A stretch of DNA of 64,000 bases, taken from contig URXV01000004.1 in assembly GCA_900551865.1 (NCBI GenBank), positions 5,597-69,596 of the forward strand. Direction: 5' to 3'. This DNA is from an uncultured Rickettsiales bacterium. Lineage in GTDB: Bacteria > Pseudomonadota > Alphaproteobacteria > RF32 > CAG-239. The position numbers and the translations under genes were made by a program. This document shows positions 11,607 through 30,356 of the stretch, in pieces. Within the stretch, counting starts at the first letter, position 1, and each line of letters starts with the position of its first letter. The notes beneath the pieces were generated by a model, which had not been told where the DNA came from, did not search any database, and saw only the letters and a list, made by a program, of their open reading frames with translations.

Positions 11607-11628
11607 TGTTCGCGGTGCGCCTGATTTA

Positions 11629-12102: not shown

Positions 12103-12111
12103 GAGGGAACG

Positions 12112-12477
12112 ATGAACAGAAATATAAAAATAGCCTTTTTGTTTGCCGTATGCGCTGTTTCTGTCGTTTCTTTTTGTGGAGAAGCAGAAGCTGCTTCGGG
12201 CGTATTTGAAACGTTGCGGCAGAAAACGGCGACATTTGCTTCCCAGTTGCGTGTTTTTGCCTATGCCATATCCTGCTTTGGGATTGTAATGTTTACGTTT
12301 CTGGCCATCAGCGGCAAAATCAATTTCAAACATTTGGGATATATTTTTATCAGTTTGTTTATGTTGTCGGCAACGGGAGCTGTTATTGATTATTTCAGCG
12401 GCAGTCATGCCAATCTGAAGTCCGAATTTAATGATACGTATATGAATGCGGTTCCGCGCAGCAGCCTCGGAAGCTGA
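12112..12477 (+). CDS. virB2: VirB2/TrbC-family T4SS pilin, paralogue 3
   Basis: RBS AGGAGGG. Signal peptide ending AEA. Two hydrophobic helices (YAISCFGIVMFTFLAISG, GYIFISLFMLSATGAVI). 121 aa. It starts 9 nt after paralogue 2. Confidence 0.65.
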   Translation: MNRNIKIAFLFAVCAVSVVSFCGEAEAASGVFETLRQKTATFASQLRVFAYAISCFGIVMFTFLAISGKINFKHLGYIFISLFMLSATGAVIDYFSGSHANLKSEFNDTYMNAVPRSSLGS

Positions 12478-12588: not shown

Positions 12589-12879
12589 ATGAAAGATGTT
12601 ATCCTGAAAGCAGTGGCTAATCCGCCCAAATTGTTTTGGGGGCCTGTTCTGCCGACAGCGCTGAATGCCGGTTTGCAGATACCGTTTATGTTTATGGCTA
12701 TCGGTATGGGTGATATCAATCCTCTGGTATTTTTAGTCAGTATTGTTTTGGGGCATTTGATTGTCGTAGCCCTCGGGGCAAAAGACCCCCACTTGTCGGG
12801 TATGATACAGGCTTTCGGCCAGACTAATGTTGTACCGCAGAACTTATACAAAGTGAAAGGGCATAAATTTGAACCTTGA
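12589..12879 (+). CDS. virB3: VirB3/TrbD-like T4SS protein
   Basis: 96 aa with N-terminal LFWGPVLPTALNAGLQIPFMFMAI plus a second hydrophobic helix. It lies immediately upstream of, and overlaps, virB4. Confidence 0.7.
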   Translation: MKDVILKAVANPPKLFWGPVLPTALNAGLQIPFMFMAIGMGDINPLVFLVSIVLGHLIVVALGAKDPHLSGMIQAFGQTNVVPQNLYKVKGHKFEP

Positions 12880-15356: not shown

Positions 15357-15395
15357 ATCACTCAACAAACGTATTATTTGACAGGGAGGGAAATT

Positions 15396-16604: not shown

Positions 16605-16703
16605 ATAAAAGAAACGGAAAATTAAGAGTATATCAATAAAGTTTCGCTTAGAATGGATTTGCTCGCAGGCCTATGAACCAAAGATTATTAGGGAGGACAC
16701 GAA

Positions 16704-18938
16704 ATGAGTAGGAAAACAGTAAACGGAAAAATTGCAGTAATGGCTGTAATCTGCAGCTTTCTTATTGCAGTGCGCCCGGTACATGCGTTCGTGTGGCCTG
16801 TAATCGATTTGACAGAAATAGTTTCCTTTACAAACAGCATCAGTACAGGGCTAAACCGGATTACCAACGCCAAAAGTCAGTTGGATAATGTAACCAATAC
16901 GATTAAAACAATTGGAGATCAGGTCGCTTCGGTTAAAAAATACGCAGCCGATTTAAAAGGGACAATAACCAATATCAAAGACAGCGTAAGTACGATTACC
17001 GATAATATTGAAGAGACGACCGATAATGTGTCGGGCATTGTTGATGATGTCAATAATACGCTTAACGGTGCAGGCACGACCGAAAATGAAAATGCGGAAA
17101 CGACGGTTGACAGCGTAAACGAACAAGTTGATTCGGGTGCTTCGGAAGAAGATGTACAGACGGTTGTTGATGAAGCCAAAAAAGAATCGGAGACCGTAAG
17201 GGAAAATGTTAACAAGACATTTGATGAAGCCGATAAAGCTATCAATGAATCGCTTGACGCCGCCAATCAGGCCTTGGATATGCTTGTCGACAGCGTTAGC
17301 GGATATGAAGGGCTGAGTGATGAAGAACGCGCCGGATTCGAACAGGAAGCCGGAAATATCAAAAATGATATTGACGGATTAAAGGATACTTCGTCAGACA
17401 TCATCGCTTCCGCTAAGGAAGACTATAACGAACAGTACAGTGAAAAAGTCGCGGCGGCATTTGACAGCTACAGTCAGGCTGTCAGCGATTATTACTCGGG
17501 AAAAACCGACCGCGAAGCGTTAAATCAGGCCGGTGAGGATTTTAAAAACAGCGTAGCTTCCCTTGATGCCGGAATAGACCAGAGCGTTATCGACGGGTTA
17601 GTTGCAAATGCGCAGGAAATTGCAGATAAGATTGATGCGCTTGAAGAAAATATGATGAACAGCATCAGCAATTCAGGGGATTATTCAGACGGCAGTGAGC
17701 AGATGTCTTTTTTAAGGCCGCAAATGCAAGAAAAGTTTGTACGGTCTGGTAAAGTATATGCTTTCGATTTTCACTCGGAAAACTTGTCTTTTTTTCTGAA
17801 AGGGGTTTATGCCGAAGATGCCGATAAAAGTTTTTTGCTGTCTAAAGAACTGGCATGCGATAATTTGGATGTTGCCGACGTAGAAGAAAATCCCGGAAAG
17901 TTAAGAACCTGCGTTGTAAAGGCTAAAACTGAAAAAGACCTGTATCCGAATGCATTCAAAGAAGAACTGTATAAGGATTATCAGAAAAACGGCGTTTACA
18001 AACACATCATTGAAGATTATAGCATTGCCAATATTGTCAGTTTAAGCAAGGCCAAACAATTTTCTGCGACTTGGGGGAGTTTGGAACCGGACGATGACAG
18101 CAATAAGGGAACGCTGTATGTCTTGCGCAAAACCCTGAAAGACGTAGACAATACGCGTAACGGTTTTGCCTTAATGGGGATGACCGATATTGAATCGCCC
18201 AAACTATGGAGCGAAATTCGCCGTATTGACGCATTGAACCGTGCTAAGGCCATGGCGCAGGATTTTGAACGCGGAACGACGCTTTTTTTGGACGGACGCG
18301 ATTCCGAGTTTGTCGAAGCAACCAAAAGGAATTGGGGAACAATGCAAAACGATGACTTGGATGCCAATGAAAATAAGGCAGTAAAAGGAAAAGCCGTTTT
18401 TTCAAATGTAATCTTGTCAATCTGCGGTCTGCGCGCCAAAGATATTTCCGTTTCGGAAATAAATAAAACCGATACGGCATCTATTGCCCAGAAAGAAAAG
18501 AATTTGGCTGATTGCCTGTTTAAATATGCTGAGGCTGCCAGCAAAGGGACAAGCAATGGTTCTGCCATAGGGGCAGATCCCGAGGCCGCCAAAAAAGAAT
18601 GGCGCGATAAACAGACTAAGGCCTATAACGATTCTGCATTTAATAATCTGACACTGGCGGTGGTAAATAACTATAAATCAAGTTTGGACTATGTTGATCC
18701 TAAAAAGCTGCCTGATCCGGATAAGGATAAAAACATTGTCAGTATGCAGGACGGGTTGAAGGAAAGTACGACAACCAAAGACGACTATGCTGCCGGAGCT
18801 CAGATAAACTACTATTCGACACAGCAGATTTTAAGCATAGTAGATGCGGATGCTCAAAATCAGCAGACGGAAATTTTGAAAGATTTGGCAACGTTTGATT
18901 ATAACTATTTTGGCAAAACCACGGGTGGAGAAGGCTGA
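16704..18938 (+). CDS. Secreted coiled-coil T4SS-associated protein 2, paralogue of protein 1 with an extra ~430-aa C-terminal domain
   Basis: Signal peptide ..RPVHA followed by FVWPVIDLTEIVSFTNS..KSQLDNVTN. The N-terminal ~310 aa are collinear with the previous ORF. Confidence 0.5.
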   Translation: MSRKTVNGKIAVMAVICSFLIAVRPVHAFVWPVIDLTEIVSFTNSISTGLNRITNAKSQLDNVTNTIKTIGDQVASVKKYAADLKGTITNIKDSVSTITDNIEETTDNVSGIVDDVNNTLNGAGTTENENAETTVDSVNEQVDSGASEEDVQTVVDEAKKESETVRENVNKTFDEADKAINESLDAANQALDMLVDSVSGYEGLSDEERAGFEQEAGNIKNDIDGLKDTSSDIIASAKEDYNEQYSEKVAAAFDSYSQAVSDYYSGKTDREALNQAGEDFKNSVASLDAGIDQSVIDGLVANAQEIADKIDALEENMMNSISNSGDYSDGSEQMSFLRPQMQEKFVRSGKVYAFDFHSENLSFFLKGVYAEDADKSFLLSKELACDNLDVADVEENPGKLRTCVVKAKTEKDLYPNAFKEELYKDYQKNGVYKHIIEDYSIANIVSLSKAKQFSATWGSLEPDDDSNKGTLYVLRKTLKDVDNTRNGFALMGMTDIESPKLWSEIRRIDALNRAKAMAQDFERGTTLFLDGRDSEFVEATKRNWGTMQNDDLDANENKAVKGKAVFSNVILSICGLRAKDISVSEINKTDTASIAQKEKNLADCLFKYAEAASKGTSNGSAIGADPEAAKKEWRDKQTKAYNDSAFNNLTLAVVNNYKSSLDYVDPKKLPDPDKDKNIVSMQDGLKESTTTKDDYAAGAQINYYSTQQILSIVDADAQNQQTEILKDLATFDYNYFGKTTGGEG

Positions 18939-19636
18939 TGAAAAAGAAACTGTGTATAGCCCTGTTCCTTTCTTTGTTCGTGTATACGAGAGAAGCGTAT
19001 GCAATTTTTGACATAATGGCAAAAGTGCAGTCGGCGCTGGAACTGTATAAGGATGTAGAAAATAAGGTTCAGCAATATACCAAAAAGCTGCGCGATATAG
19101 AAAAGAGGGCGCGGCAGGGGTTTGACTTGGCAAGCAGCTGTTACAAAAACCCGAAACAATGTGATCCGAAAGCTCTGGAGGCTTTTGCCAAGGATTCGGA
19201 AAGTTATGTAAAAAGCATGAAGGAGATTAGGGTTATGCCGGGCGCCGAAGAGCTGAAAAAAGGCGATTTGAAGAAAAAAAGCGACAAAAGCCTGGCGCAA
19301 ACGGTTGAAACCAGCTATATTTACCAGCGCGGCCAGGGGGATGATATTGAAAAGACCAGTGAAAACCGCCGTTTGATTAATGCCGTCATAGCGGATGATG
19401 CGGCGCTGCTGTTTGCCAAGGGCGTTTCGGCACGACAGAGCATACTCGTCGAAGACGGTTCTCTGTATCAGGTTGAATTCAAAAAGAATAATATTGATGA
19501 AATTCTAAATGCGCAAAACATCGTAGCTATCGCGACACAACAGCGTTTGAACCGGATTTTGGAGCTTCGCGCATATATGGCGAGCGCGGGAGCGACGGCT
19601 GAACTGACGCGTCAAACCAGAGAAGCGGATGAATAG
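18938..19636 (+). CDS. VirB5/TrbJ-like secreted protein (best size match to canonical VirB5)
   Basis: 232 aa. Signal peptide ..REAYA then IFDIMAKVQSALELYKDVENKVQQ. Helical throughout. One-nt overlap (TGATG) with the upstream gene. Confidence 0.4.
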   Translation: MKKKLCIALFLSLFVYTREAYAIFDIMAKVQSALELYKDVENKVQQYTKKLRDIEKRARQGFDLASSCYKNPKQCDPKALEAFAKDSESYVKSMKEIRVMPGAEELKKGDLKKKSDKSLAQTVETSYIYQRGQGDDIEKTSENRRLINAVIADDAALLFAKGVSARQSILVEDGSLYQVEFKKNNIDEILNAQNIVAIATQQRLNRILELRAYMASAGATAELTRQTREADE

Positions 19637-19648
19637 GGGAGGCAGGCA

Positions 19649-20995
19649 ATGAAAAAACAGTTAATTGCAACGGCATTAATCTTCTCGCTGGCACTCGGTC
19701 CCAAACCTGCCGCAGCGTTGATTATTGATGCGCCGACGCTGGCAGCAAAAATCAGCGAATGGGCAGGTAAGCTTGCCGATGCCTCAACGCAGATAACGAC
19801 ACACGTTTCTCAGGCAAAACAGATGACGTCGCAGGGCTTCAATAAGGAAGAACTTTTCGGACTGGCTAAAGAATATGCGACCGAAAACGGTAAAAAACTG
19901 GTTCAGGAAAAAATGAAAAAAGTTGTCGAGGGAACCAAAAAGAAAAACAAGGATAAGCTTCAGGCAGAGCAGGATGCTTATGTAGAAGGGCGTAATCTGT
20001 ATTATGACGAAAAAATCGGCATCGTTGAAGAAAGCATAAAAGAAACCAGAAGTTTGCAGGCGTCAAAAGAAAGCGAACGCGACCAGAAAAGGGCGGAAGT
20101 CCAGCAAAAGAAAGCCAAATACGAAAGTGTAAAGCATATTCCCGGTGAAGCTGAAAAGGCGCAGGATGAATATATGACAGCCCAGATGGAATATGATGCG
20201 CTGGTTGCGGCGTGTACAGAACTGGATACTTTGGCTATAACGCTGGAGTCCCAGCGCGATACGCTGGAAAATGAAAAAGCCAAGGTTGGAACTTCGGAAG
20301 ACCCGCAGTATGTATCGTATCAGGCCCGTCTGAAAGAATTAGATGCTGATAAAGAAGACGAAACTTTTGTCAGCAAAGTAGCAGATGAGGAAGATATTGA
20401 ATGGAGTATGAAGAGTAATCCGGATATCGTCAACCAGTTTACGCCGACTGAAGAGGACTATAAAAAATTTATTGAACGTTATTTTTATGATCCGGAAGAG
20501 TTGGGCAGCGCGTCGGGCGATGAAGGGCGCATTATGCACCAGACAAAAATTGATGCCGTTGCGCGCGAACGGAAGTACTTGCTGACCAATACGGCGGCGC
20601 ATCTTTTACAGGTAACGGCAACGCTGCGGCGTGAGATTCCGGTGCGAACCGAAATAATTGACGAAATGTTCAAAAACACGCCCAAAGCTACCGGCGAGTT
20701 GGAGGCTATTTCGTCTTATTCGGCAACCAGAATAGAAAATATGAAGGCTCTGCTGATGTATGCCAAACTGCAAAGCGCCCGCTTGCAGTATATGGCGGCA
20801 AGAGAACTTTTGAATCTGAACGGTGTAAAAACGCCGAACGGAACCTATAAGGATTTTGATTTGGAAAAATATATTCTGACTAAGGAATATGTTGATAAGA
20901 TTGTAAAAGAGGCTGATACGGCCAACAATGCCGTAACCGCGGTGGAAGAAAATTACAAAGTTAACGGGGAGGACTACCAATGGTTAAAAAATTAA
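19649..20995 (+). CDS. Secreted coiled-coil T4SS-associated protein 4
   Basis: 448 aa. Signal peptide ..KPAAA then LIIDAPTLAAKISEWAGKLADASTQI. Charged helical repeats. No membrane helices, so it is not VirB6/TrbL despite its position. Confidence 0.45.
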   Translation: MKKQLIATALIFSLALGPKPAAALIIDAPTLAAKISEWAGKLADASTQITTHVSQAKQMTSQGFNKEELFGLAKEYATENGKKLVQEKMKKVVEGTKKKNKDKLQAEQDAYVEGRNLYYDEKIGIVEESIKETRSLQASKESERDQKRAEVQQKKAKYESVKHIPGEAEKAQDEYMTAQMEYDALVAACTELDTLAITLESQRDTLENEKAKVGTSEDPQYVSYQARLKELDADKEDETFVSKVADEEDIEWSMKSNPDIVNQFTPTEEDYKKFIERYFYDPEELGSASGDEGRIMHQTKIDAVARERKYLLTNTAAHLLQVTATLRREIPVRTEIIDEMFKNTPKATGELEAISSYSATRIENMKALLMYAKLQSARLQYMAARELLNLNGVKTPNGTYKDFDLEKYILTKEYVDKIVKEADTANNAVTAVEENYKVNGEDYQWLKN

Positions 20996-23900
20996 GATTG
21001 CTGCAATGCCTGCTCCTGAGTGTCGTCATCTTGGGTGCAGAGGTAAAAAAGGCAGATGCATTCTTTTTATTGCCGCCGATGCCTTGGGACATTGAAGTCG
21101 ATATCCCCGGCAATGCCAATAAGGTGGTGTCCAATCTGAAAGCTTATTACCGCCAGCTTCAGACGATTAAATCCGAGCTGAACAGCCAAAAGCTTGAAGT
21201 TCTTAAAAAAGGACAGGTTTTTGCTTTTGTATCCGAAAAACTTAAAAGCGAAGGCGGTAAAAATAAAACCCCGGGCAAGGGAAAATTACAAAACAATGCC
21301 GAGCTGGGCATCAGCAAAGGCGGCCTTGATGAAGAAGAAAATTTCAATGCTTTCCATACGCTGTTTTTCACCTATCCTCCCGAAAGCGACTATCCGGACA
21401 ACTATCCGGCGGTGAAGACGGCATATAAACACAAGGCAATTGAATATAAGCAGGATGTAATAATGGAAACCTACCTGACCGGAAGGGTAACGGAAGATTA
21501 TCTGGGTTTAGTAGAAAAGACCATTGAGCGGTTGGATAATTGCCAGAAAGGGCTGTATACTAAGGAAGAAATGGCCGAACACTGCGTCTTTTTCGGTTTG
21601 CAGATGGCTTATGTCGAGCCGGAAAAGGCCGAGCCTGAAGGCGATCCGGAAAATAGTGAAAACCCCGGTCAGTACGGCGAAATTATGAACGCCTATATCG
21701 TAACGACGGTGTATGACCGCCTGATGCGTATGGTAGAAGACTTGACAGCGGCGGAAGCACAGTTTATGTCTGCTAAGCAGATTGATATGGTTGATCCGAT
21801 AAATCCTGATGACCAGCAGAGTTCGGCCGAGGATTATCTTGATAACGGATATCGTTTTGCTTATAATGAAAGCCGCACCTATGCCCATGCTAAAGGAACG
21901 ATGCTTGGCGGCGACTACATTCGCAGCGAAGAATGCAAAAACGGTGGCAAAAACTGCCCCGGACTGAACGAGGATAATGCCGAGCTCAAAAATGCGGACG
22001 ATACGGCAATTTTAGGAAAACTGCAACCGATTGACGAGCAGATTAATCAGGCGATGAACCTGCATAACTTAAAGGCTCAGCTGGGCGAATATAAGTCTCA
22101 GTACCGTAAATATTTGAAAGCTAAAGAAATTCATGAGCGTATGCTGAAAGTTCTGGAAAAGAGCGATCAGTGCACGGCCGGATTCTTTGACCGTTACAGT
22201 AATGGCCAGGGGGCATCTATCTGGTACGGCGGCAGCGCTCCGGCCAAAGCTAACGACCATGACAGTCGTTCCGGGCTCTCCCGTACTGTAATAGAAGAGT
22301 ACCAGAAAGATACGACGGATACGATATTGGGAACGAAAAGCAGTGAATGTGACGGGTTTTATGAAAGCTGCCCCGACGGGTATCGCTTGGATGAAACCAA
22401 TCCTTGCCAATACGAAGACGCTTCGGGCAAGACTGTAACCAGTTCAACCATGTTTGCCTGCGTATTGGATACGGTTACGTCAGATACGGAACCAAAAGAA
22501 GGTGATTATCCTAAAGTAGATTTTAATCCAAAGCTGGAAAGAATGAATTTTGAAGACGGAACCTCAAAATCAGGTTATGAGGAAGCCGGAGAGGAGATTA
22601 TAAACAATCGCGAATATAATGATACCGATTTCCTGATAGACGGAACGCAGGCCGATGATATCCAGACAGATAACCGTGTAAAGGCCGAAAAAGGCTGGCG
22701 CATAGGATACAATCACGTTATGGAACTGACTGAAAACGGCACCTTGCAGTTTGAACCCTGGAACGACCAGAAGAACCTGCAATCCGAATATCTGCGCAAT
22801 AAATATCGGAATATGCGGATGATAGTCAAAGCCGTAGACGAAGGTATGATGTCCTATCGCGTGGCTAAGACTCAGGCGGAGAAATATGGCAGAGTAGGGC
22901 CGATTGAAAAAGTGTTGCCTGCTGTTACCGCGTGTAAATTAACAACCGATGCAACAAAAGATGCCTGGAATCAGGAATGTGGTGATTTCAGCTTAACAAA
23001 TTCAAATCCTGGCGGAGATACCGCATCTTATTCTGGTACCAGGACCATAATGTGTACCTGCTACAACAGCGACGGTGAACCCTATAGCTGCTCCAAGATA
23101 CTGCACTGTAGTATCAGCGGCAGCAATGATACGGGGTGGATTACGGGAAGCAAAGAGGAAGGGTGTGTACCGACGACGGTTCCGATAAAATATGACCAGC
23201 GTATAAAATCCCTTTCCGGCGGCTGCGCTTTCCCGAAAGCAAATACCACCTATGAGGCTTCATTGGAAGACAAAAGCGGAAAATGTCCGGGAACGTGGGA
23301 TTTCAGTACGAAATTCCTTGTTCAGAAATATATGCCGGCCGTTGTTGGCAGCTGGAAAAATGGCGGCGGTTTTGAAAGCACCTGCCCGGGCAGTCTGGAT
23401 TCGCAAACTACCCATCTGTTTGACAATACACATGCAGCCGGACGGGTAGTAGCTTCTGACCGCTTTGAGGATATTCTGAAAAAGCGTAAAGAAGTGGAAC
23501 AAAGGCTTCAGAGTATGGTTACGCAGTATGAAAGCGAAATGAAGTCGCTGAAGGCTCAGCTGAAGTCAACCATTGAAGCGCGCAAATCGCACAGCGAACG
23601 CTTAAGCCAGGCAACGGATACCAAAAATGAAGCCGTGCAGGAGCGTCAGCGTTCTCTGCAAAGGGTAACTGCGATTGAAAATCAGATTAACGATTTGAAA
23701 AACAACCGTATACCGGCCTTGCAGGAACGTCTTGCCGGCAGAAATCCGAAGCCTGAAAAACTGCAAAAGGATTTGGATTCTATCCTGACCGGCGCCGGTG
23801 AAGATTTGGAAAAATATGAAAATCCGACCCTTGCGCAGAAAATCGGTCAGATTCCGGCGCTGGAAGAAGAACTTGCCTATATCTGCAAAAAGGCTCCGGC

Positions 23901-26436
23901 AAAAGACAAGGAATGTGCGCCGTACAGCGGCAAGTCCAATCAATATGACCCGTATGAAAATATTGAAGACGAAGACGATATTTTCAAAAATGTCGCCGAG
24001 TTGGAAAATACGATAACAACGGCTCAGGTAACAATGGACAGTGCGCAGTCTATGCTGGATGTGCTTCAGGACCAGATTGACAGCCTTAGCGAACAGATAA
24101 GGGAGCGCGCATCCCGCTTTGCCAAGGAATATCTGGCTGCCGCGGAGCAGGGACAGCAGGAAATTGAAGCTGCCAACAAAGAATTTGAAGACAAGCTTGA
24201 AACCAAGGATGACGGCAGTGAGCCAGACCGTATGGTTAATAATAACCGCCGTTGGTGCAAAAAAGACGGGTTCTTGGGAATTGGCTGCAGGGAATACAGC
24301 CACGAATATAAATTTGACAACCTTAAATGGACGATGGCGAGAGTTATGTTCGGCAACGGTACGTCAAACAGCGAAGGGGCCGTAGACGGTGAATTGCCGG
24401 GAATTGTCAATGATACGATAGACGAGCGCTGGTTCAAAAACAACTGGTCGCAGTACCCGCAGAAACTGTCAAGTGTCGGTGTTGTTCGCAAGTTTGTGGT
24501 TGCATGTGGCAACTGTATGGCAGATGCGGGAGTCCCTGATAAAAACGAACCATACACGCCGGATAGTTTAGCTCAGGCAGTCAAGAAACAGGCGATGAAA
24601 GAAGCTGTTGATGCGCTCGCAGGAGCTGGCGGATATATTCCGAAAGCCGATGAAATTATCAAAGATGAAGTTGATTCGGCGGTAAAGGAAATTACGACCG
24701 TTATGGAAGAATGGGGCGTAACCGGAGAAGACGGCGTAGCGCCGAATGAAGCCATATACAAGCATGCAAATTATGCAGGCAATGGCGAAGGTAACGGCGG
24801 ACAGGCTGTAACGGCTCGCCATTACAAACTGATTGACGAGCTGAAACAGGCCGAGCATCAATCTGAACTTGATGCAGCAGAAATTGCATTGGAAGAAAGT
24901 TTCGGTATCCCGTCCGGTATTGTAACCGATGACGATTTCTTTGCCGGGTTGCCTGCTCGCGGTGCATATACGGTAACTGTTCCGTCATATGGCAAACAGC
25001 CTGAAAAACTCAAGTTTGATGAAAATGACGGACGCGATTATATGGCGCCGCACCGGCCGTTGCTGAATTTGGCGCCGATAAGGGAAGTGTTCTATTTCAG
25101 TGCTATGGATTATGACGATGTTCCGCAGGAAAACGGCGCGCCGTCGCTTTCAACGCTGGTTGACCGGAAATATAAAAATACCGAGGGCGTTGAACCTGTA
25201 GAATATTTGCCGGAGACCTGGCGTTATCTTCTTGCGACGCCGAATATGCGCAATGAGCCGACACCGAAATATCAGCAGACGTTTGTTGAACGGTCTTATG
25301 GCAAAGACAAGTTAAAAGACTATATAAACAATAAAGATATCGGTGGTAAAGAAGAACACTACCGCGCAATAATCGGACGCGCCGGCGTATATCCGTGCAA
25401 GCTTGGCGGTACGGTAATTGACGAAGGGGGCGGCGATGGTGTCGGCGATATGAGCTTTAAACGGCGCAGTTCAATCCCGGCCGGAGCTAATACCGAAACC
25501 TGTCAGGAAGTAGAACTCCATAAAAACGGCGTTCGCCATTTGCTGGCAGATCACAATGCCAAGGATGAAGGCAAGTCAAAAGCCTTGCAGGGAAGTCTGG
25601 GCAGCACGTCCGAACCGATGTACACAAACTACAGCGAATTAGGGCAGTTTCTGAACGGTGATTTGAAATATCGTCCGATGCTGAAGAATATATATGATTA
25701 TTTGCTGGATGAAAATAATCAGGACAACAGTATCGAACGCCAGCGCGGAGATTTGGCGACGTTTAAGCGTAACGTTATCGGTGGATTCCTTGAAGCTGTA
25801 AATGCCGAACATAATGCGCAGAAGACATTGGATAACAATAAGGAAGACGTTGTTAATTCTCTGAAGAACTTGTGTACGCAGCTGCATAACTTTGGGGAGA
25901 GCGTCAACGGCGAGGCCTGCGAAGATGAAAGCGACAGTACCTGTGCTGATCAGATTGCAGAACAGTGTGCAGCCTATATTATGGATAACGGAGGTCTGGC
26001 GAAAAATGCAGCTGATGACAAATATGAGGTTGATTGTGCCCAATCTTCCGGCGGTTCCTATTACGAGCAGATATTCTGCAAACTGAATGACCTGAAAGAT
26101 GAGGCTATTGCCAAAGCCCATCAGGGGTATTCCGAAACAGACAGCGATGGAACCACGGTTACCTATGTCGGTTTCGATAACCTGAAAGGGGAAGCTTCTG
26201 CTACGGATTCTGACAGGGTTAAAGAGCGCATTCAGGAAATTGAGGATTATTTCGGAGCCTTTGAAGCCGATGCCGATGAAGTATCTTATATTCAGCCGAA
26301 AGCGACAAAAGCGTCTGTAACTGAAGACGTCAAAGAGGCTAAGGCCAACTGGGAAGCTTCGCGTGCGGCGGAAGAGGAGGGTATAACCTCAATGGATAAT
26401 CAGAGTCAGGCGGTAGCTTACTGTCCGGTATATTAA
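20980..26436 (+). CDS. Giant (1818 aa) secreted, Cys-rich, coiled-coil-containing T4SS-associated protein
   Basis: RBS GGGGAGGA. Signal peptide ..KKADA then FFLLPPMPWDIEVDIPGNANKVVSNLKAYYRQLQTIKSEL. Cys clusters include CKNGGKNCPG, CDGFYESCPDGYRLDETNPC and CTCYNSDGEPYSCSKILHC. A central ~250-aa coiled coil is present. No TM helix follows the signal peptide. Confidence 0.55.
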   Translation: MVKKLRLLQCLLLSVVILGAEVKKADAFFLLPPMPWDIEVDIPGNANKVVSNLKAYYRQLQTIKSELNSQKLEVLKKGQVFAFVSEKLKSEGGKNKTPGKGKLQNNAELGISKGGLDEEENFNAFHTLFFTYPPESDYPDNYPAVKTAYKHKAIEYKQDVIMETYLTGRVTEDYLGLVEKTIERLDNCQKGLYTKEEMAEHCVFFGLQMAYVEPEKAEPEGDPENSENPGQYGEIMNAYIVTTVYDRLMRMVEDLTAAEAQFMSAKQIDMVDPINPDDQQSSAEDYLDNGYRFAYNESRTYAHAKGTMLGGDYIRSEECKNGGKNCPGLNEDNAELKNADDTAILGKLQPIDEQINQAMNLHNLKAQLGEYKSQYRKYLKAKEIHERMLKVLEKSDQCTAGFFDRYSNGQGASIWYGGSAPAKANDHDSRSGLSRTVIEEYQKDTTDTILGTKSSECDGFYESCPDGYRLDETNPCQYEDASGKTVTSSTMFACVLDTVTSDTEPKEGDYPKVDFNPKLERMNFEDGTSKSGYEEAGEEIINNREYNDTDFLIDGTQADDIQTDNRVKAEKGWRIGYNHVMELTENGTLQFEPWNDQKNLQSEYLRNKYRNMRMIVKAVDEGMMSYRVAKTQAEKYGRVGPIEKVLPAVTACKLTTDATKDAWNQECGDFSLTNSNPGGDTASYSGTRTIMCTCYNSDGEPYSCSKILHCSISGSNDTGWITGSKEEGCVPTTVPIKYDQRIKSLSGGCAFPKANTTYEASLEDKSGKCPGTWDFSTKFLVQKYMPAVVGSWKNGGGFESTCPGSLDSQTTHLFDNTHAAGRVVASDRFEDILKKRKEVEQRLQSMVTQYESEMKSLKAQLKSTIEARKSHSERLSQATDTKNEAVQERQRSLQRVTAIENQINDLKNNRIPALQERLAGRNPKPEKLQKDLDSILTGAGEDLEKYENPTLAQKIGQIPALEEELAYICKKAPAKDKECAPYSGKSNQYDPYENIEDEDDIFKNVAELENTITTAQVTMDSAQSMLDVLQDQIDSLSEQIRERASRFAKEYLAAAEQGQQEIEAANKEFEDKLETKDDGSEPDRMVNNNRRWCKKDGFLGIGCREYSHEYKFDNLKWTMARVMFGNGTSNSEGAVDGELPGIVNDTIDERWFKNNWSQYPQKLSSVGVVRKFVVACGNCMADAGVPDKNEPYTPDSLAQAVKKQAMKEAVDALAGAGGYIPKADEIIKDEVDSAVKEITTVMEEWGVTGEDGVAPNEAIYKHANYAGNGEGNGGQAVTARHYKLIDELKQAEHQSELDAAEIALEESFGIPSGIVTDDDFFAGLPARGAYTVTVPSYGKQPEKLKFDENDGRDYMAPHRPLLNLAPIREVFYFSAMDYDDVPQENGAPSLSTLVDRKYKNTEGVEPVEYLPETWRYLLATPNMRNEPTPKYQQTFVERSYGKDKLKDYINNKDIGGKEEHYRAIIGRAGVYPCKLGGTVIDEGGGDGVGDMSFKRRSSIPAGANTETCQEVELHKNGVRHLLADHNAKDEGKSKALQGSLGSTSEPMYTNYSELGQFLNGDLKYRPMLKNIYDYLLDENNQDNSIERQRGDLATFKRNVIGGFLEAVNAEHNAQKTLDNNKEDVVNSLKNLCTQLHNFGESVNGEACEDESDSTCADQIAEQCAAYIMDNGGLAKNAADDKYEVDCAQSSGGSYYEQIFCKLNDLKDEAIAKAHQGYSETDSDGTTVTYVGFDNLKGEASATDSDRVKERIQEIEDYFGAFEADADEVSYIQPKATKASVTEDVKEAKANWEASRAAEEEGITSMDNQSQAVAYCPVY

Positions 26437-26473: not shown

Positions 26474-27232
26474 ATGGCTAATTTGATAAATCAAAAGATT
26501 TTGCGTATTGCCGACAAAGGGAAAGCCAAAGAGCCTCCCGCGTTCATCACGGAAGATGTTGTTGAAGTCCGTCGCGCAAAGCTGATTTATTACAAATGGA
26601 TATCGCGATTAATGGCGATGTTGGCCACTGTTTCGCTTCTTTACGGCGTTTGTACCACATTATCCATTTTAAAACTGGCTCCGGAAATAGTCATTGACCC
26701 GCAGATGTTTGTTGAGCTGTCTGATTCGCAGTCGCTTGTTAAAAGAGAACATATTAACCGCCGGATGGATTCGCGGGAAAAAATGATGATTAACTTTATG
26801 AAACAATATGTCGAACTGCGAAACACCTATATCAAAGACGAGCGGGAAATGAATAACCGTTGGCTTTGGGGTGGTCTTGTATCGTACTTGTCAACGTATA
26901 AGGTTTACAAGGAGTTTGAAAAAGTGTTTCCCAAACTGCGGGCAGAAATGGTAGAGAACAATTCCAGCCGCTCGGTAGAAATCCTGTCGGTTGAACGTAC
27001 CGGCGGCGAAAACAGCAATACTTGGAAAATTGAGTTCAAAACCTATGACTATACGTTTAAAAGCGACCGTTTAAGCCGCCGGTCCAGCGTTACGCCGACA
27101 ATTACCGAAAGGTATTGGACCGCCAACATCCGCGGTTATGTCGACCCGAACCGGAGAACGGCATACCGTCGCCTGCTAAATCCTCTCGGATTTGTCGTCT
27201 ATAGTTATTTTCAAAGCGAAATCGAGATTTAA
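26474..27232 (+). CDS. virB8: VirB8/TrbF-family protein, paralogue 1
   Basis: 252 aa. N-terminal cytoplasmic tail, one TM (LMAMLATVSLLYGVCTTLSIL), then a periplasmic domain with YVELRNTY..EM..RW and the C-terminal NPLGFVVYSY motif. Confidence 0.75.
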   Translation: MANLINQKILRIADKGKAKEPPAFITEDVVEVRRAKLIYYKWISRLMAMLATVSLLYGVCTTLSILKLAPEIVIDPQMFVELSDSQSLVKREHINRRMDSREKMMINFMKQYVELRNTYIKDEREMNNRWLWGGLVSYLSTYKVYKEFEKVFPKLRAEMVENNSSRSVEILSVERTGGENSNTWKIEFKTYDYTFKSDRLSRRSSVTPTITERYWTANIRGYVDPNRRTAYRRLLNPLGFVVYSYFQSEIEI

Positions 27233-27375
27233 AATATTGTTAAACATTTTCGTGCTATACTAAACATGGTGCAATTTAGCCTGTTGATAAGTTGCGGCAA
27301 TTTATTTTCTCGTTAGACTTTTAAAATTAAAAGTTCTAATTATATAAAAGGGTTATTTTAAAAAGAGGAAAAACC

Positions 27376-27564
27376 ATGTATAAAGCGCTGATTTTGGTAT
27401 TTGCCGTCTTAATTTTAGCCGCCTGCAATCTGGTTGGCAGCTATTACGAGCCTGAACCCGTCGGAATAGGCAAAGACGTGTACGAACTTAAGCTTTCTCC
27501 CTGTGCCTGTATAGAGGTGGAACTGCCGAAGACGCTGCCGGACTGGTTCCGGGCAATGAGCTGA
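27376..27564 (+). CDS. Small lipoprotein (VirB7-like by size and context)
   Basis: 62 aa. RBS AAGAGGA. Lipobox LAAC (MYKALILVFAVLILAAC). It lies between the two virB8 paralogues and upstream of virB9. Confidence 0.45.
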   Translation: MYKALILVFAVLILAACNLVGSYYEPEPVGIGKDVYELKLSPCACIEVELPKTLPDWFRAMS

Positions 27565-27580
27565 ATTAGAGGTACGGTTG

Positions 27581-28345
27581 ATGGCTGAACAGATTTCTTC
27601 TGACAATACAAAAAAACTGCTCTTGGAGGGAGGCGGAGCCAAAGCGGCGCCGCAGCCTCGTCCGGCACGCCCGCACCGGCGTCCCGGAAATGCGGATATT
27701 GTTGTCGAGAATGCAACGGAAAAGCGTTATCTGTGGACGGCGCGGGCTTTTGCCATCATCTTTGCCGTCAGCCTGTGCTGTAATTTGATTCTGACGTATG
27801 TCGTATTCGCCATAATGCCGCTGTATCGGATTGAACCGTATTTGTTCAGTTTTTCAAACAAAGAAGACCAGATATATACTATCCATCCGGTGAAAAATAT
27901 CTATGAACATAAATATTTGACGGAAATTTTTGTCAGGGAATATGTCCTTCTTCGTAATACGTTTGTTAATGATGTTGAAGAAATGGAACAGCGTTGGGGG
28001 GCTGGCAGTACGATACAGGAGATGTCCGCAACCGGAGTTTATGATAAGTTTCGCAAGGAATTTGCCGATGCGGCGATTGAACTTATCCGCAAGCATAATA
28101 TTACCCGTAACATAAAGATTTCTTCCGTAACCGAGGTTGGCGGTGTAAACGGTGAAACCTGGTGGCAGGTGGAGTTTCGGGTTGAAGATATGATGCCGGA
28201 ATATGAAACGCCCCGTTTGAGCGTGTGGGTGGCTTCCGTTAAGATAAGATACCGTGCCAAACGGGTTAAATTTGGCGAAAGGCTGAAAAATCCGTTGGGA
28301 TTTACCGTCCTTGACTATAAACAGGTTGAACGCAAAACAAATTAA
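27581..28345 (+). CDS. virB8: VirB8/TrbF-family protein, paralogue 2
   Basis: One TM (FAIIFAVSLCCNLILTYVVFAIM). Motifs YVLLRNTF..EMEQRW and NPLGFTVLDY. ATG at 27581 is preferred over TTG at 27578. Confidence 0.75.
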   Translation: MAEQISSDNTKKLLLEGGGAKAAPQPRPARPHRRPGNADIVVENATEKRYLWTARAFAIIFAVSLCCNLILTYVVFAIMPLYRIEPYLFSFSNKEDQIYTIHPVKNIYEHKYLTEIFVREYVLLRNTFVNDVEEMEQRWGAGSTIQEMSATGVYDKFRKEFADAAIELIRKHNITRNIKISSVTEVGGVNGETWWQVEFRVEDMMPEYETPRLSVWVASVKIRYRAKRVKFGERLKNPLGFTVLDYKQVERKTN

Positions 28346-28367
28346 TTGAATGTTTAGGGTATGCATA

Positions 28368-30356
28368 ATGACTAAAGTATTGAACATTTTATCAGCGGCA
28401 ATTTTATCGTTGGGGGCGCTTGCAACTTTGGCCGAGGCTCAGGTAACCAAAGATAATCTGGATCAGAACGCAGACCAGAGCCAGGGGAATTATGCAGCTA
28501 CCAATTTAAATTATTTGGGGGGCGTCGGATCGCTTGGTATGATGCAAAGCGCGTGGAAGGACCCTCTGCAGCACATGGGAGAAGGGCAGACACGGCCGGG
28601 GTATACCAAATATTATTGGACACCGGAATTGGTTTTGCCGGTCAGAGTCCGCGAGGGAATGTATACTCTGATTAATTTTCCGAATTGGGAAGTTATTGAG
28701 AATGTCTATATCGGCGACGGACAGTCGTTTAATGCGGAAATACAAGGGCCTTCAAGTTTGATGGTTTACCCGGATTCGTCGCAGTTTGTCGGAGTGGATA
28801 CCAATATGATTGTTTTTGGTCGATCCGGTAATAAATATGTTTTTTATGTTCAAAGTGAAACGGTAAATACCGACCGCATTACTAATGCTATTATTGATAT
28901 AGAAGTCGTTAAAAACCGTCAGAATGCCAACGGCTCTGCGGTTATCGGAGCGGGAACAGGCGGCGGCCACATAAACGCCAACAGTTACAGCCAGGACGGA
29001 ACCAGTGCGGATGCAACGTTTACGCGTAATTTGCAAAAAGAGGACTGGATTGAAAAAATTCCTGTCGATCCGACGAAATTCAGGTTTGATATTGAAGTAT
29101 ATGTTCCCAATCCCGACGATATTGTTATTGCGCCGGAGCGCGTTTGGCGTGATAACATATTCACATATATTGATTTGGGAGACAAAGCTCTGACTGCGGT
29201 ACAACGGCCGATTGTTACATTGATTGTCGAACGTTCCGAAACACCCGTAGGCTTCCGGACAGCCGGGCCGAACAACCGTTTGATTATTGTTGAAGGCATG
29301 GGAGATATGGTTTTGCGCAGCGGAAAACGGATTGTTTGCCTGAAGCTCCGTCGCGCAGATTCTGACGGGTTGGAAAATACCGTTTATGCCAAAACGAACG
29401 AGTGGGATCTTCAGTCGGCGCATGCTTCCAAGCCGGAAAATGGCCTTGAAACCGGGCAGTATGAGGACGTGTACGGTAATGGCGGAGCCTCTCGGCCGAC
29501 CATGGGAAATAATAGTACGTCGGGAAATAACAGTGCATCTGGAAATAGTGGCACATCAGGAACCGGTGCGGCATTTTTTGAAAATAATTCATTTTCTGGA
29601 ACGCAAAATGCGACACAAAATAGTGGCGGCTTAAGCTATGAAGACATCATAAGCGGGCAAAAAGTCCCGGCCGGCAATGCAAATCAGTCTGGCAGGCAGC
29701 CGTCTTCAGGAGAAATGTCGCTAAACGATGCCTCCGCATTAAATTCTATTCCGAAAGCAACGCCTGTTGTTGCTCCGGTACAGAATAAACAGGATAATAC
29801 AACAGCTCCGCATCCGTCTCTGTCCGGGCAATATGACGTCAAGGCCGGCGGTGGTGCAGAACTTGTTACGCCGGAATACAACGGGAAACAGGATGTTTCG
29901 ATAACATATCAGAAGGATAAAGTTCAGGGTACTCCGGCGGCAGGAACACCGGCCGTGGGGAATTCGTCCAATAACTCAAGCCCCGTGCTGATTACGCCCA
30001 AAGAAGATGCCGCTGATAAAAACGCTGTTGTTTCCGCAGAAACGGAAGCTTTGCTGAAAGAATTCCGTGACGGCAAGGCTTTTGCCAATGTTGATGAAAG
30101 CAATATTTCTATTGAATTGGGAACGGATGAAGACGTGAATAATCTTGAAAAGTTGTGGAACGATATTTCCAAAAATTATTCAGCCGCTATAGGAAAATAT
30201 CAGCCCTTTTATTCGGTGGACACGCCTGCCGATGGTCAGGGGAGAGAAGTTTTTCATCTCCGCGTCGGGCCGGTAAAGTCATTGGATGAAGGGGATAATA
30301 TTTGCAGCCAGCTTGGGCGTAACGGTATCTTTTGCAGCGTGGTCAGAATACAATGA
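28368..30356 (+). CDS. virB9: VirB9/TrbG-like protein with low-complexity linker and C-terminal SPOR-like domain
   Basis: Signal peptide MTKVLNILSAAILSLGALATLAEA; the ORF is open from 28350. VirB9-like N- and C-domains are present (YYWTPELVLPVRVREGMYTLINFP.., IFTYIDLGDK..PIVTLIVERSETPVGFR..RLIIVEG). A Gly/Asn/Ser-rich linker follows, then the SPOR-like end. Confidence 0.7.
   Translation: MTKVLNILSAAILSLGALATLAEAQVTKDNLDQNADQSQGNYAATNLNYLGGVGSLGMMQSAWKDPLQHMGEGQTRPGYTKYYWTPELVLPVRVREGMYTLINFPNWEVIENVYIGDGQSFNAEIQGPSSLMVYPDSSQFVGVDTNMIVFGRSGNKYVFYVQSETVNTDRITNAIIDIEVVKNRQNANGSAVIGAGTGGGHINANSYSQDGTSADATFTRNLQKEDWIEKIPVDPTKFRFDIEVYVPNPDDIVIAPERVWRDNIFTYIDLGDKALTAVQRPIVTLIVERSETPVGFRTAGPNNRLIIVEGMGDMVLRSGKRIVCLKLRRADSDGLENTVYAKTNEWDLQSAHASKPENGLETGQYEDVYGNGGASRPTMGNNSTSGNNSASGNSGTSGTGAAFFENNSFSGTQNATQNSGGLSYEDIISGQKVPAGNANQSGRQPSSGEMSLNDASALNSIPKATPVVAPVQNKQDNTTAPHPSLSGQYDVKAGGGAELVTPEYNGKQDVSITYQKDKVQGTPAAGTPAVGNSSNNSSPVLITPKEDAADKNAVVSAETEALLKEFRDGKAFANVDESNISIELGTDEDVNNLEKLWNDISKNYSAAIGKYQPFYSVDTPADGQGREVFHLRVGPVKSLDEGDNICSQLGRNGIFCSVVRIQ
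30102..30353 (+). other. SPOR-like peptidoglycan-binding domain at the VirB9 C-terminus
   Basis: ISIELGT..FHLRVGPVKSLDEGDNICSQLGRNGIFCSVVRIQ parallels the FtsN-type SPOR ending (..RVVIGPVKGKENADSTLNRLKMAGHTNCIRL) in its shared G-P-V-K core. Confidence 0.55.

What the first reader, a model, noticed from the sequence alone, without database searches (positions are those of the whole stretch)
20980..26436. 1818-aa Cys-rich secreted giant: candidate surface-exposed adhesin or effector-like module of the T4SS
This ORF overlaps the preceding gene by 16 nt and has a strong RBS, so it is probably co-translated with the T4SS genes. After the signal peptide it has no membrane helix. It contains several Cys clusters typical of extracellular disulfide-stabilised domains (CKNGGKNCPG, CDGFYESCPDGYRLDETNPC, CTCYNSDGEPYSCSKILHC, CGNC). 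It also has a central ~250-aa coiled coil and an acidic C-terminus. It is far larger than any VirB5-class protein I know. Its role could be host or target-cell recognition. That role is inference.
Basis: inference. Interest (0 to 1): 0.65.

Follow-up and report, generated by a model that had tools for sequence, protein, structure and literature searches.

The report
Giant orphan secreted T4SS accessory protein
This 1818-residue gene encodes a secreted, disulfide-bonded, mostly helical protein with no known relatives; it always sits inside an unusually elaborate type IV secretion gene cluster of uncultured gut Alphaproteobacteria and is most likely an exposed contact or adhesion part of that machine.

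Summary
An intact 1818-aa ORF lies at 20980-26436. It has a GGAGG ribosome-binding site, a 16-nt overlap with the upstream gene, and an N-terminal signal peptide as its only hydrophobic stretch. The mature protein has 34 Cys, and the centre is a roughly 250-aa coiled coil.

The gene sits in a VirB-type T4SS operon. About 70 homologues (21-98% identity) were found, all in uncultured gut and rumen Alphaproteobacteria, and always in the same gene order. An exhaustive HMMER scan of 1.84 billion proteins found no relatives outside this family. Pfam, NCBIfam, PDB sequence profiles and Foldseek on AlphaFold models matched nothing except coiled coils.

It is not a VirB5-class protein. The neighbouring genes X1, X2 and X4 are VirB5-derived, but this protein is not (hhalign 0.7%).

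Three results point to an extracytoplasmic, probably exposed protein:
- 54 of 65 homologues have an even Cys count, and Cys columns are gained and lost in pairs.
- dN/dS is 0.09, the highest in the locus.
- Within-species variation falls in four two-allele cassettes that recombine freely.

A frameshift allele occurs in a minority of strains of the same species. The adhesin or contact role is plausible but unproven. An effector role is weakly supported.

The parts
20968..20972 (+). Ribosome-binding site GGAGG, 7 nt upstream of the ATG. It lies inside the 3' end of the upstream gene X4.
   Evidence: sequence read directly
20980..26436 (+). ORF 'G': 1818-aa secreted protein of an orphan family (stop codon included).
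20980..21060 (+). Sec-type signal peptide (residues 1-27) with a family-conserved AxA|F cleavage motif. The mature N-terminus reads FFLLPPMPWDIEVDIP.
21217..21246 (+). Two-allele cassette P1 (residues 80-89).
21061..22347 (+). N-terminal helical region (residues 28-456). Conserved Cys pairs at 188/202 and 319/326. Cys398 co-varies with Cys1815.
22348..22461 (+). Four-Cys beta-hairpin module (residues 457-494). All four Cys are invariant.
22492..22608 (+). Two-allele cassette P2 (residues 505-543). The alleles differ by a 15-aa indel. The segment is a low-pLDDT loop.
22978..23385 (+). Cys-rich beta-sheet module and its flank (residues 667-802). It contains cassette P3.
22993..23043 (+). Two-allele cassette P3 (residues 672-688). 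The alternative allele gains two Cys.
23452..24198 (+). Antiparallel coiled-coil hairpin (residues 825-1073). The long helices are about 94 and 69 residues.
23734..23991 (+). Variable, indel-rich tip of the hairpin (residues 919-1004). It contains the site of the frameshift allele: the G at window position 23797 (codon 940) is deleted in L037 and L038.
24202..26433 (+). C-terminal alpha/beta domain (residues 1075-1818), the best-modelled (pLDDT about 80) and most conserved part of the protein.
24460..24570 (+). Two-allele cassette P4 (residues 1161-1197). The CGNC motif is lost in the alternative allele.
24937..25299 (+). Highly conserved, mostly non-helical motif block (residues 1320-1440): LPARG, GRDY.AP, PLREVFYFS, EYLPE.WRYLLA.PN.R, YQQTFVER.
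26380..26433 (+). Conserved C-terminal tail GI.SMDNQSQ.V.YCP.Y. The final Tyr is invariant, and Cys1815 co-occurs with Cys398.
11024..12477 (+). Context: three VirB2/TrbC-like pilin ORFs (11024-11398, 11767-12102, 12112-12477).
12589..15322 (+). Context: VirB3-like ORF (12589-12879) and VirB4 (12869-15322).
15378..20995 (+). Context: four secreted genes, X1 (15378-16604), X2 (16704-18938), X3 (18938-19636) and X4 (19649-20995). X1 and X2 are paralogues with a VirB5-type mature N-terminus. X4 has a VirB5-like C-terminus.
26474..30356 (+). Context: VirB8 (26474-27232), a VirB7-like 62-aa lipoprotein (27376-27564), a second VirB8 (27578-28345) and VirB9 with a SPOR domain (28350-30356).
30332..42343 (+). 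Context: a 2202-aa beta-flower repeat protein (30332-36940), a 1453-aa VirB10 carrying the same repeats (36903-41264) and VirB11 (41363-42343).

Best explanation
G is a Sec-exported, disulfide-stabilised, elongated accessory subunit of a lineage-specific, expanded VirB-type (P-type) type IV secretion system. The system is carried on the chromosome of uncultured gut Alphaproteobacteria.

Proposed mechanism:
- G is translated together with an array of VirB5-derived minor-pilin-like proteins (X1-X4).
- It crosses the inner membrane through Sec and is oxidised in the periplasm. The N- and C-terminal domains pack side by side at the base of a roughly 14-nm antiparallel coiled-coil hairpin. They are possibly tied together by a Cys398-Cys1815 disulfide.
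- Its nearly invariant core, especially the C-terminal motif block, docks on other T4SS parts.
- Four discrete polymorphic patches and the variable hairpin tip face outward and contact a variable partner on a target cell or host surface.

In function this resembles what TraN or VirB5/CagL do for other T4SSs: contact, adhesion and stabilisation.

Shown: operon membership, export signal, evidence for disulfides, overall architecture, restriction to one lineage, and the selection pattern.
Inferred: docking partners, surface exposure, and the nature of the ligand.
For: T4SS membership:
- VirB2 (three copies), VirB3 and VirB4 lie upstream. VirB8, VirB7-like, VirB8, VirB9, VirB10 and VirB11 lie downstream.
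- The order VirB4-X1-X2-X3-X4-G-VirB8 recurs in every related locus long enough to show it, down to 21% identity.
- G overlaps X4 by 16 nt and has a GGAGG site. No convincing terminator flanks it.

Extracytoplasmic and oxidised:
- A signal peptide with a conserved AxA site is the only hydrophobic segment.
- 54 of 65 homologues have an even Cys count in the mature protein.
- Cys columns appear and disappear in pairs: 652/749, 1511/1519, 1686/1700 and 398/1815.
- A within-species allele gains exactly two Cys.

Architecture:
- AlphaFold models give pLDDT 69 for the N-terminal part and 80 for the C-terminal part. They show helical domains, small Cys-rich beta modules and a long antiparallel hairpin.

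Exposure-like evolution:
- dN/dS is 0.094, against 0.006 for VirB4, 0.02-0.035 for VirB8 and 0.053 for VirB9.
- The 74 amino-acid differences from a strain of the same species cluster in a few cassettes that also have raised pS. Differences in X1 and X2 are dispersed.
- The four cassettes each have two main alleles and reassort: 7 of 16 combinations occur among 15 alleles.

Precedent: TraN is a Cys-rich outer-membrane T4SS protein with a conserved core and a variable tip that sets receptor specificity (PMC9246713).
Against: - No localisation or expression data could be obtained.
- G has no lipobox, beta-barrel or other recognisable outer-membrane anchor, so how it would reach the surface is unknown.
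- No fold or sequence similarity to any adhesin, VirB5, TraN or CagL was found.
- The clustered polymorphism could instead reflect co-evolution with another polymorphic machine component.
- A frameshift allele in a minority of strains, with the rest of the locus intact, shows the full-length protein is dispensable at least in some settings.
- VirB6 and VirD4 are not in the window, so the system's substrate and target are unknown.
Confidence: 0.42

Rival explanations
1. G is a periplasmic structural scaffold of an enlarged T4SS core or stalk. In role it would be comparable to the Cag-specific subunits Cag3, CagM and CagT, or it would supply a periplasmic function normally given by VirB6. It would not be exposed on the surface. 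The coiled-coil hairpin would act as a strut across the periplasm.
For: - Synteny is strictly one-to-one with the machine genes.
- The core is nearly invariant within the species.
- No outer-membrane targeting feature is present.
- No polytopic VirB6 gene lies in the locus or the window.
- The other subunits are also enlarged: VirB9 with a SPOR domain, a 1453-aa VirB10 and a 2202-aa repeat protein.
- A hairpin with about 94-residue helices would be about 14 nm long, comparable with the width of the periplasm (the length is inferred from helix geometry).
Against: - G has the highest dN/dS of the locus.
- It carries four recombining two-allele cassettes with raised synonymous divergence, which is unusual for a buried scaffold.
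- The gene is split in some strains while the neighbouring machine genes stay intact.
- It has no membrane segments, so it cannot replace the VirB6 channel itself.
Confidence: 0.3
2. G is a Sec-dependent cargo of the T4SS. It would be exported to the periplasm, folded and oxidised there, and then released or delivered by the machine as a toxin or effector. This is the two-step route known for pertussis toxin and the Ptl system (established knowledge).
For: - The signal peptide combined with T4SS linkage fits this route.
- The protein is very large and acidic.
- The Rickettsia T4SS paper notes that the Ptl system lacks VirB5 because no cell contact is needed (PMC2653234). This shows that Sec-dependent T4SS cargo exists.
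Against: - No enzymatic or toxin domain was found in Pfam, NCBIfam, PDB profiles or Foldseek.
- The C-terminal region is the most conserved part, not a variable toxin tip.
- There is no immunity-like small gene next to it. The next gene, 37 nt downstream, is VirB8.
- The locus does have VirB5-like and VirB2-like genes, so it is a contact-type machine.
Confidence: 0.12
3. G is a giant, highly diverged VirB5-class paralogue. It would carry a VirB5 N-terminal helix, fused to large extensions, at the pilus tip.
For: - G follows an array of VirB5-derived genes. All five start with a signal peptide followed by a hydrophobic-Pro-x-Asp type N-terminus.
- With the signal peptide included, hhalign of the G N-terminus against X1 reached 59%.
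Against: - After removal of the signal peptide, the mature G N-terminus scores 0.7% against a VirB5 profile and at most 26% against X1-X4. In the same test X1 scores 87% and X2 scores 81%.
- The full-length G profile scores 1% against VirB5.
- There is no PF07996 hit.
- The N-terminal 76 residues of the model have pLDDT below 50.
Confidence: 0.08
4. G is an unrelated gene that merely sits inside the operon and has no role in secretion.
For: - It has no detectable homology to any T4SS component.
- The closest plasmid T4SSs lack such a gene.
Against: - Its position is invariant in every related locus inspected across deep divergence.
- It is translationally coupled to X4.
- Its rate of evolution matches that of X2 and X4.
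- Some lineages have inserted into G the same beta-flower repeat that is found in VirB10 and the 2202-aa protein.
Confidence: 0.03

Closest known systems
TraN of F-like conjugative plasmids (mating-pair stabilisation protein)
   Same: Both are Sec-dependent, Cys-rich accessory proteins of a T4SS whose cysteines can all pair. Both have a conserved core with discrete variable regions. In TraN the variable tip decides which surface protein of the partner cell is bound (PMC9246713).
   Different: - No sequence match: there is no TraN Pfam hit.
- G is three times larger, mostly alpha-helical, and has a long coiled-coil hairpin. TraN is mostly beta.
- G belongs to a VirB/P-type system, not an F-type system.
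- Outer-membrane location is unproven for G.
VirB5 / TraC / TrwJ / CagL minor pilins (PF07996 and analogues)
   Same: Both are secreted through Sec, are encoded after VirB4, and are thought to mediate target-cell recognition at the distal end of the machine (PMC2653234).
   Different: - G is about 8 times larger.
- It fails profile comparison with VirB5, scoring 0.7-1%.
- The locus already has VirB5-derived genes (X1, X2, X4).
Helicobacter pylori Cag T4SS (an expanded type IVA system with CagY and species-specific subunits)
   Same: Both are VirB-like backbones enlarged by lineage-specific proteins. Both have a very long VirB10 carrying internal repeats (here 1453 aa with beta-flower repeats). 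The comparison with CagY rests on my own knowledge.
   Different: None of the extra proteins is homologous. G matches no solved Cag subunit in PDB sequence or fold searches.
Rickettsiales rvh T4SS
   Same: Both are alphaproteobacterial, chromosomal, vertically inherited P-type systems with a duplicated VirB8. In both, several lineage-specific genes follow VirB4 (PMC2653234).
   Different: The rvh system has five polytopic VirB6-like proteins after VirB4 and lacks VirB5. Here the five genes after VirB4 are soluble secreted proteins with no membrane helices, and three of them are VirB5-like.
Compact conjugative VirB loci of Microvirga, Sphingosinicella and Erythrobacter plasmids (closest VirB4, 34-35% identity)
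   Same: In the two loci inspected (Erythrobacter and Microvirga), the backbone order is the same: VirB2-B3-B4-...-B7-B8-B9-B10-B11. They share a homologous VirB7-like lipoprotein motif, GIG...SPCACI.
   Different: Those loci have a relaxase and VirD4, a single 251-273-aa VirB5, and no giant gene. G and the 2202-aa protein are additions specific to the gut lineage.

Membership tests
VirB5/TraC/TrbJ (Pfam PF07996 'T4SS') | Match to the family profile | tested here: not met
   No Pfam or NCBIfam hit, even at E up to 10. hhalign of the G profile against a 25-sequence VirB5 alignment gives 0.7% for the N-terminus and 1% for the full length.
VirB5/TraC/TrbJ (Pfam PF07996 'T4SS') | Sec signal followed by the mature N-terminus IPV(I/x)D...I...Q helix | tested here: inconclusive
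   The signal peptide is present. The mature N-terminus FFLLPPMPWDIEVDIP only loosely recalls the motif. X1 and X2 align in register at 81-87%, but G does not.
VirB5/TraC/TrbJ (Pfam PF07996 'T4SS') | A protein of about 220-270 aa forming a three-helix bundle with a globular appendage | tested here: not met
   G is 1818 aa and multi-domain. No TraC, TrwJ or CagL chain appears among the top 50 Foldseek hits shown.
TraN (F-type mating-pair stabilisation) | Match to the TraN family profile and an F-type T4SS context | tested here: not met
   No Pfam hit. The surrounding genes are VirB/P-type.
TraN (F-type mating-pair stabilisation) | Many conserved cysteines, all able to pair | tested here: met
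   The mature protein has 34 Cys. 54 of 65 homologues have an even count, and Cys columns co-occur in pairs.
TraN (F-type mating-pair stabilisation) | Outer-membrane location and binding to a receptor on the partner cell | not testable with these tools
   This needs fractionation and binding assays.
VirB6/TrbL | Polytopic inner-membrane protein with at least 5 membrane helices | tested here: not met
   The signal peptide is the only hydrophobic segment. No such ORF occurs anywhere in the window.
Classical T4SS effectors | Cytoplasmic synthesis without a Sec signal, recruitment by VirD4 through C-terminal signals | tested here: not met
   An N-terminal signal peptide is present. No VirD4 was found among the ORFs scanned in the window.
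Autotransporter or other beta-barrel surface proteins | C-terminal beta-barrel domain | tested here: not met
   The C-terminal 200 residues are modelled as helices. There are no Pfam barrel hits. Only the terminal aromatic residue (Tyr) is shared.
VirB-type (type IVA, P-type) T4SS locus, as an accessory component | Encoded within and co-inherited with a set of VirB2, B3, B4, B8, B9, B10 and B11 genes | tested here: met

The most novel reading that the evidence does not exclude
G is the founding member of a new class of T4SS distal subunit. It would be a 200-kDa, disulfide-locked, coiled-coil 'arm' mounted on an array of VirB5-like proteins. Its four recombining two-allele cassettes would be receptor- or immune-facing surfaces kept by balancing selection. 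This would mark a Cag-like, host-cell-directed secretion machine in a widespread, uncultured human-gut alphaproteobacterium.
Probability: 0.2. Interest if true: 0.8.

Novelty: new variant of a known kind. Interest (0 to 1): 0.55.

Why it matters
T4SSs are well understood mostly for a few model systems. Their lineage-specific additions, such as the Cag subunits or TraN, are what determine which cells they touch.

This family has no detectable relatives in 1.84 billion representative proteins. It is nevertheless conserved across a whole clade of common but uncultured gut and rumen Alphaproteobacteria. The closest cluster alone holds 1046 sequences from public assemblies.

If the protein is the contact module, its four polymorphic cassettes would give a direct handle on what these bacteria attach to, whether host epithelium, mucus or other microbes. 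It would also add a new structural solution for T4SS target recognition. Even on the scaffold reading, it documents an expanded T4SS architecture that has not been described.

Tried and rejected
- Single-sequence and profile searches of G found nothing except coiled-coil noise. I used Pfam, NCBIfam, PDB sequences and Pfam on 13 family members.
- I modelled two overlapping AlphaFold segments. Including the coiled coil was a tactical mistake. Foldseek against PDB and BFVD returned only coiled-coil proteins (SMC, Rad50, dynein stalk, colicin R domain, tape measures) at E of 0.006 or worse, so the globular domains could not be ranked on their own.
- A second homologue search with a profile that included the distant clade added no new lineages. 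An exhaustive phmmer search with the C-terminal 744 aa found only the same family. A profile-based exhaustive search was not possible because the alignment exceeded 1200 positions.
- The idea that G is a VirB5 paralogue came from the look of the N-termini. It was weakly encouraged when signal peptides were included and rejected once they were removed and a real VirB5 profile was used.
- Profiles of X2, X3 and X4 against PDB, and of X3 against Pfam, gave nothing useful.
- No internal duplication was found between the N- and C-terminal halves.
- G is not related to the accessory proteins of the nearest plasmid T4SSs.
- A lysozyme or transglycosylase reading of the 'YSELGQFL' motif was considered because the locus lacks VirB1. 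I dropped it because no such fold or family hit appeared.
- Literature searches for RF32 or gut Alphaproteobacteria T4SS found no paper, and the 'beta-flower' search found no paper using that term.
- Read-level checks of expression and of the frameshift were not possible.
- The promoter and terminator scan was uninformative.
Full report
**1. The observation**

The ORF at 20980..26436 on the + strand is real and translates into 1818 residues without a stop. A GGAGG site lies at 20968-20972, 7 nt before the ATG. The ORF overlaps the preceding ORF (19649..20995) by 16 nt. The only hydrophobic 19-residue windows (Kyte-Doolittle above 1.4) are at the extreme N-terminus, and the next highest value in the protein is 1.25. 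The protein therefore has a signal peptide and no membrane helix.

There are 35 Cys, one of them in the signal peptide. The central region scores as coiled coil against Rad50, SMC, tropomyosin and similar proteins. The C-terminal 100-residue blocks are acidic.

**2. The surroundings**

The + strand from 11.0 to 42.3 kb is a VirB-type T4SS operon. In order it encodes:
- three VirB2/TrbC-like ORFs;
- a VirB3-like ORF;
- VirB4;
- four secreted proteins that I call X1 (408 aa), X2 (744 aa), X3 (232 aa) and X4 (448 aa);
- G, the protein under study;
- VirB8, a 62-aa lipoprotein (27376-27564, lipobox LAAC), and a second VirB8;
- VirB9 with a C-terminal SPOR domain;
- a 2202-aa membrane-anchored protein made of beta-flower repeats;
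- a 1453-aa VirB10 carrying the same repeats;
- VirB11.

The 62-aa lipoprotein shares the motif GIG...SPCACI with the small lipoproteins that sit at the VirB7 position in the closest plasmid T4SSs.

No polytopic VirB6-like ORF exists anywhere in the 64 kb. No VirD4, relaxase or VirB1 was found among the ORFs scanned.

Upstream on the minus strand lies a type IVb pilus cluster with bundlin, T2SSF, T2SSE, PilO, secretin and TcpQ genes. Downstream are engB, yidC, gpsA, recF, dnaN, dnaA, mfd and recG. The locus is therefore chromosomal and close to the replication origin.

**3. Relatives**

G has 66 full-length homologues at 30-98% identity, all unnamed or 'hypothetical'. A genome scan found 34 loci, all in MAGs of uncultured gut or rumen Alphaproteobacteria. 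The closest is 'Acetobacter sp. 46_36' at 96%. Three members of a distant clade are 1308-1427 aa long and 21-27% identical.

In every locus long enough to show it, the order VirB4-X1-X2-X3-X4-G-VirB8-VirB8-VirB9-giant is kept. The distant clade has one X gene fewer.

An exhaustive phmmer scan of residues 1075-1818 against 1.84 billion representative proteins returned 54 hits. All were this family or fragments of it.

The nearest VirB4 proteins in plasmids are 34-35% identical and come from Microvirga, Sphingosinicella and Erythrobacter. The two loci inspected (Erythrobacter and Microvirga) are compact conjugative loci with a relaxase, VirD4 and a single VirB5, and have no giant gene. G is thus a lineage-specific addition to a P-type backbone.

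**4. What it is not**

Pfam, NCBIfam, PDB sequences, a family profile against PDB, and Pfam on 13 diverse members gave no domain apart from coiled-coil noise. One lineage carries a sporadic beta-flower insert.

The mature N-termini of X1-X4 and G look alike, so I tested whether G is a giant VirB5. I built a VirB5 profile from PF07996 members related to the Erythrobacter VirB5. The results against this profile were:

| Protein | hhalign result |
|---|---|
| X1, mature | 87% (E 4e-6), in register (WPVxD..I against IPVIDP..I) |
| X2, mature | 81% (E 1e-5), in register |
| X4, C-terminus | 77% against the C-terminus of the single Erythrobacter VirB5 sequence |
| G, N-terminus | 0.7% |
| G, full length | 1% |

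G against X1-X4 without signal peptides scores at most 26%. The locus therefore holds an array of VirB5-derived genes, and G is something else. G also shows no relation to the accessory proteins of the nearest plasmid systems, and it has no internal N/C duplication.

**5. Architecture**

Two overlapping AlphaFold models were made with a 59-sequence alignment. Residues 27-1100 gave pLDDT 69 and pTM 0.43. Residues 820-1818 gave pLDDT 80 and pTM 0.55. They show:
- helical bundles at residues 118-270, 349-449 and 556-667;
- a four-Cys beta hairpin at 469-495;
- a Cys-rich beta sheet at 671-739;
- a long antiparallel coiled-coil hairpin (helices 825-918 and 1005-1073) with an indel-rich tip;
- an alpha/beta C-terminal domain.

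The most conserved sequence block (1320-1440) lies in the C-terminal domain and is largely non-helical.

Foldseek against PDB and BFVD returned no hit at E of 0.001 or better. The top hits were coiled coils only. Because the hairpin was included in both models, the globular domains were not ranked independently. This is a limitation of my design.

**6. Evidence for an oxidising, extracytoplasmic location**

- Fifty-four of 65 full-length homologues have an even number of Cys in the mature protein.
- Cys columns that are not universal come and go together: 652/749, 1511/1519, 1686/1700 and 1246/1258.
- Cys398 in the N-terminal domain co-occurs with Cys1815 in the conserved C-terminal tail in the same 25 of 29 sequences. 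This suggests a disulfide that ties the two ends together at the base of the hairpin (inference).
- One within-species allele gains exactly two Cys.

**7. Selection**

Against a strain of the same species (L003), dN/dS per gene is as follows:

| Gene | dN/dS |
|---|---|
| G | 0.094 |
| X1 | 0.087 |
| X4 | 0.070 |
| X2 | 0.059 |
| VirB9 | 0.053 |
| X3 | 0.052 |
| VirB8 (two copies) | 0.02-0.035 |
| VirB4 | 0.006 |

At about 65% identity, dN of G is about 0.26, equal to that of X2 and X4. It exceeds VirB9 (0.16), VirB8 (0.10) and VirB4 (0.04).

The protein is clearly constrained, yet it is among the fastest-evolving in the locus. Its within-species differences are not spread out. Most of the 74 differences fall in residues 505-543, 672-688 and 1161-1197, with a smaller group at 1295-1315, and both pN and pS are raised there. 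Differences in X1 and X2 are dispersed.

Among 15 alleles of the 90%-identity cluster, four patches each have two main alleles: 80-89, 505-543, 672-688 and 1161-1197. These occur in 7 of the 16 possible combinations, so they recombine. Old alleles kept at discrete patches on an otherwise frozen protein is the pattern expected for outward-facing or partner-facing surfaces. It does not prove exposure.

**8. A disrupted allele**

Four protein clusters of 887-996 aa, and a 797-aa cluster member, derive from a single 1-nt deletion. The change is GCCGGTG to GCCGTG at window position 23797, codon 940, in the hairpin tip. It is found in assemblies from different samples. In L037 all other T4SS genes called in the locus are intact. 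In L038 VirB9 is also split. The intact form dominates: 1046 sequences are in its cluster, and named members were seen on up to 53 contigs each.

Against that stand conservation over the whole clade and the low dN/dS. I read it as a recent loss-of-function lineage, and I could not check the reads.

**9. Mechanism and comparison**

The best-supported reading is that G is a Sec-exported, disulfide-locked accessory subunit of this expanded T4SS. Its conserved core docks on the machine, and its polymorphic cassettes and hairpin tip contact a variable partner.

In logic this resembles TraN of F-like plasmids: Cys-rich, a conserved core, and a variable tip that sets receptor specificity (PMC9246713). 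It also resembles the adhesin role proposed for VirB5/CagL (PMC2653234). G is a member of neither family.

The main rival is a periplasmic scaffold role in an enlarged core. A Sec-dependent cargo role in the manner of pertussis toxin is possible but lacks any catalytic signature.

The overall system resembles Cag (long repeat-bearing VirB10, many private subunits; my own knowledge) and the Rickettsiales rvh system (duplicated VirB8, several lineage-specific genes after VirB4). It shares none of their extra proteins.

**10. Verdict**

G is a real, conserved, lineage-restricted orphan protein that belongs to an undescribed variant of a VirB-type T4SS. The 'surface adhesin' interpretation is plausible and gains indirect support, and the 'effector' interpretation does not. 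Function remains inferred. Domain-wise fold searches, complex prediction, population genetics of the cassettes and localisation experiments would settle it.

Noticed in passing
window 15378-20995 (+): Four secreted genes lie between VirB4 and G. X1 and X2 are paralogues (hhalign 99-100%), and their mature N-termini align in register with VirB5. The X4 C-terminus resembles the VirB5 C-terminus. X3 (232 aa) is VirB5-sized but unmatched. Together they form an array of VirB5-derived genes.
   Followed up: partly
window 11024-12477 (+): Three tandem small ORFs of VirB2/TrbC pilin type (124, 111 and 121 aa), each with a signal peptide and two hydrophobic segments. Only the first reaches the Pfam TrbC threshold.
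   Followed up: partly
window 27376-27564 (+): A 62-aa lipoprotein (lipobox LAAC) lies between the two VirB8 genes. It shares a GIG...SPCACI motif with the small lipoproteins at the VirB7 position in Erythrobacter and Microvirga plasmid T4SSs, so it is probably VirB7.
   Followed up: partly
window 30332-41264 (+): A 2202-aa N-terminally anchored protein is made of beta-flower (PF21784/PF21785), DUF3659 and RHS-like repeats. It is followed by a 1453-aa VirB10 carrying the same repeats ahead of its TrbI domain, a layout like CagY. In P0028-P0030 about 240 aa of the same repeat are inserted into G near residue 1270.
   Followed up: partly
window 28350-30356 (+): VirB9 (CagX family) is 668 aa and ends in a SPOR peptidoglycan-binding domain. 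The SPOR hit is borderline (E 3.8e-4, at the cut-off).
   Followed up: no
whole window: No polytopic VirB6/TrbL-like ORF, VirD4 coupling protein, relaxase or VirB1 was found in the 64 kb. The closest plasmid systems have a relaxase and VirD4. These parts must be elsewhere in the genome or absent.
   Followed up: partly
window 161-9282 (-): A type IVb pilus cluster (bundlin-like pilin, T2SSF, T2SSE, PilO, secretin, TcpQ/PilL-like) lies divergently next to the T4SS. This recalls the thin-pilus clusters of IncI plasmids that carry adhesins for mating specificity.
   Followed up: no
window 23797; loci L037 and L038: The same 1-nt deletion in G occurs in assemblies from different samples and gives ORFs of 995-996 aa and 797-800 aa. 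L038 also has VirB9 split into 421 and 133 aa, which may indicate T4SS decay in one sub-lineage.
   Followed up: partly
window 42394-51446 (-) and 46415-47407 (+): engB, yidC, gpsA, recF, dnaN and dnaA lie directly downstream of VirB11. The T4SS is therefore a chromosomal, origin-proximal locus and not a mobile element.
   Followed up: no
window 25639-26121 (-): A 160-aa antisense ORF with four hydrophobic segments lies inside G. It is most likely a by-product of the acidic coding strand and not a gene.
   Followed up: no
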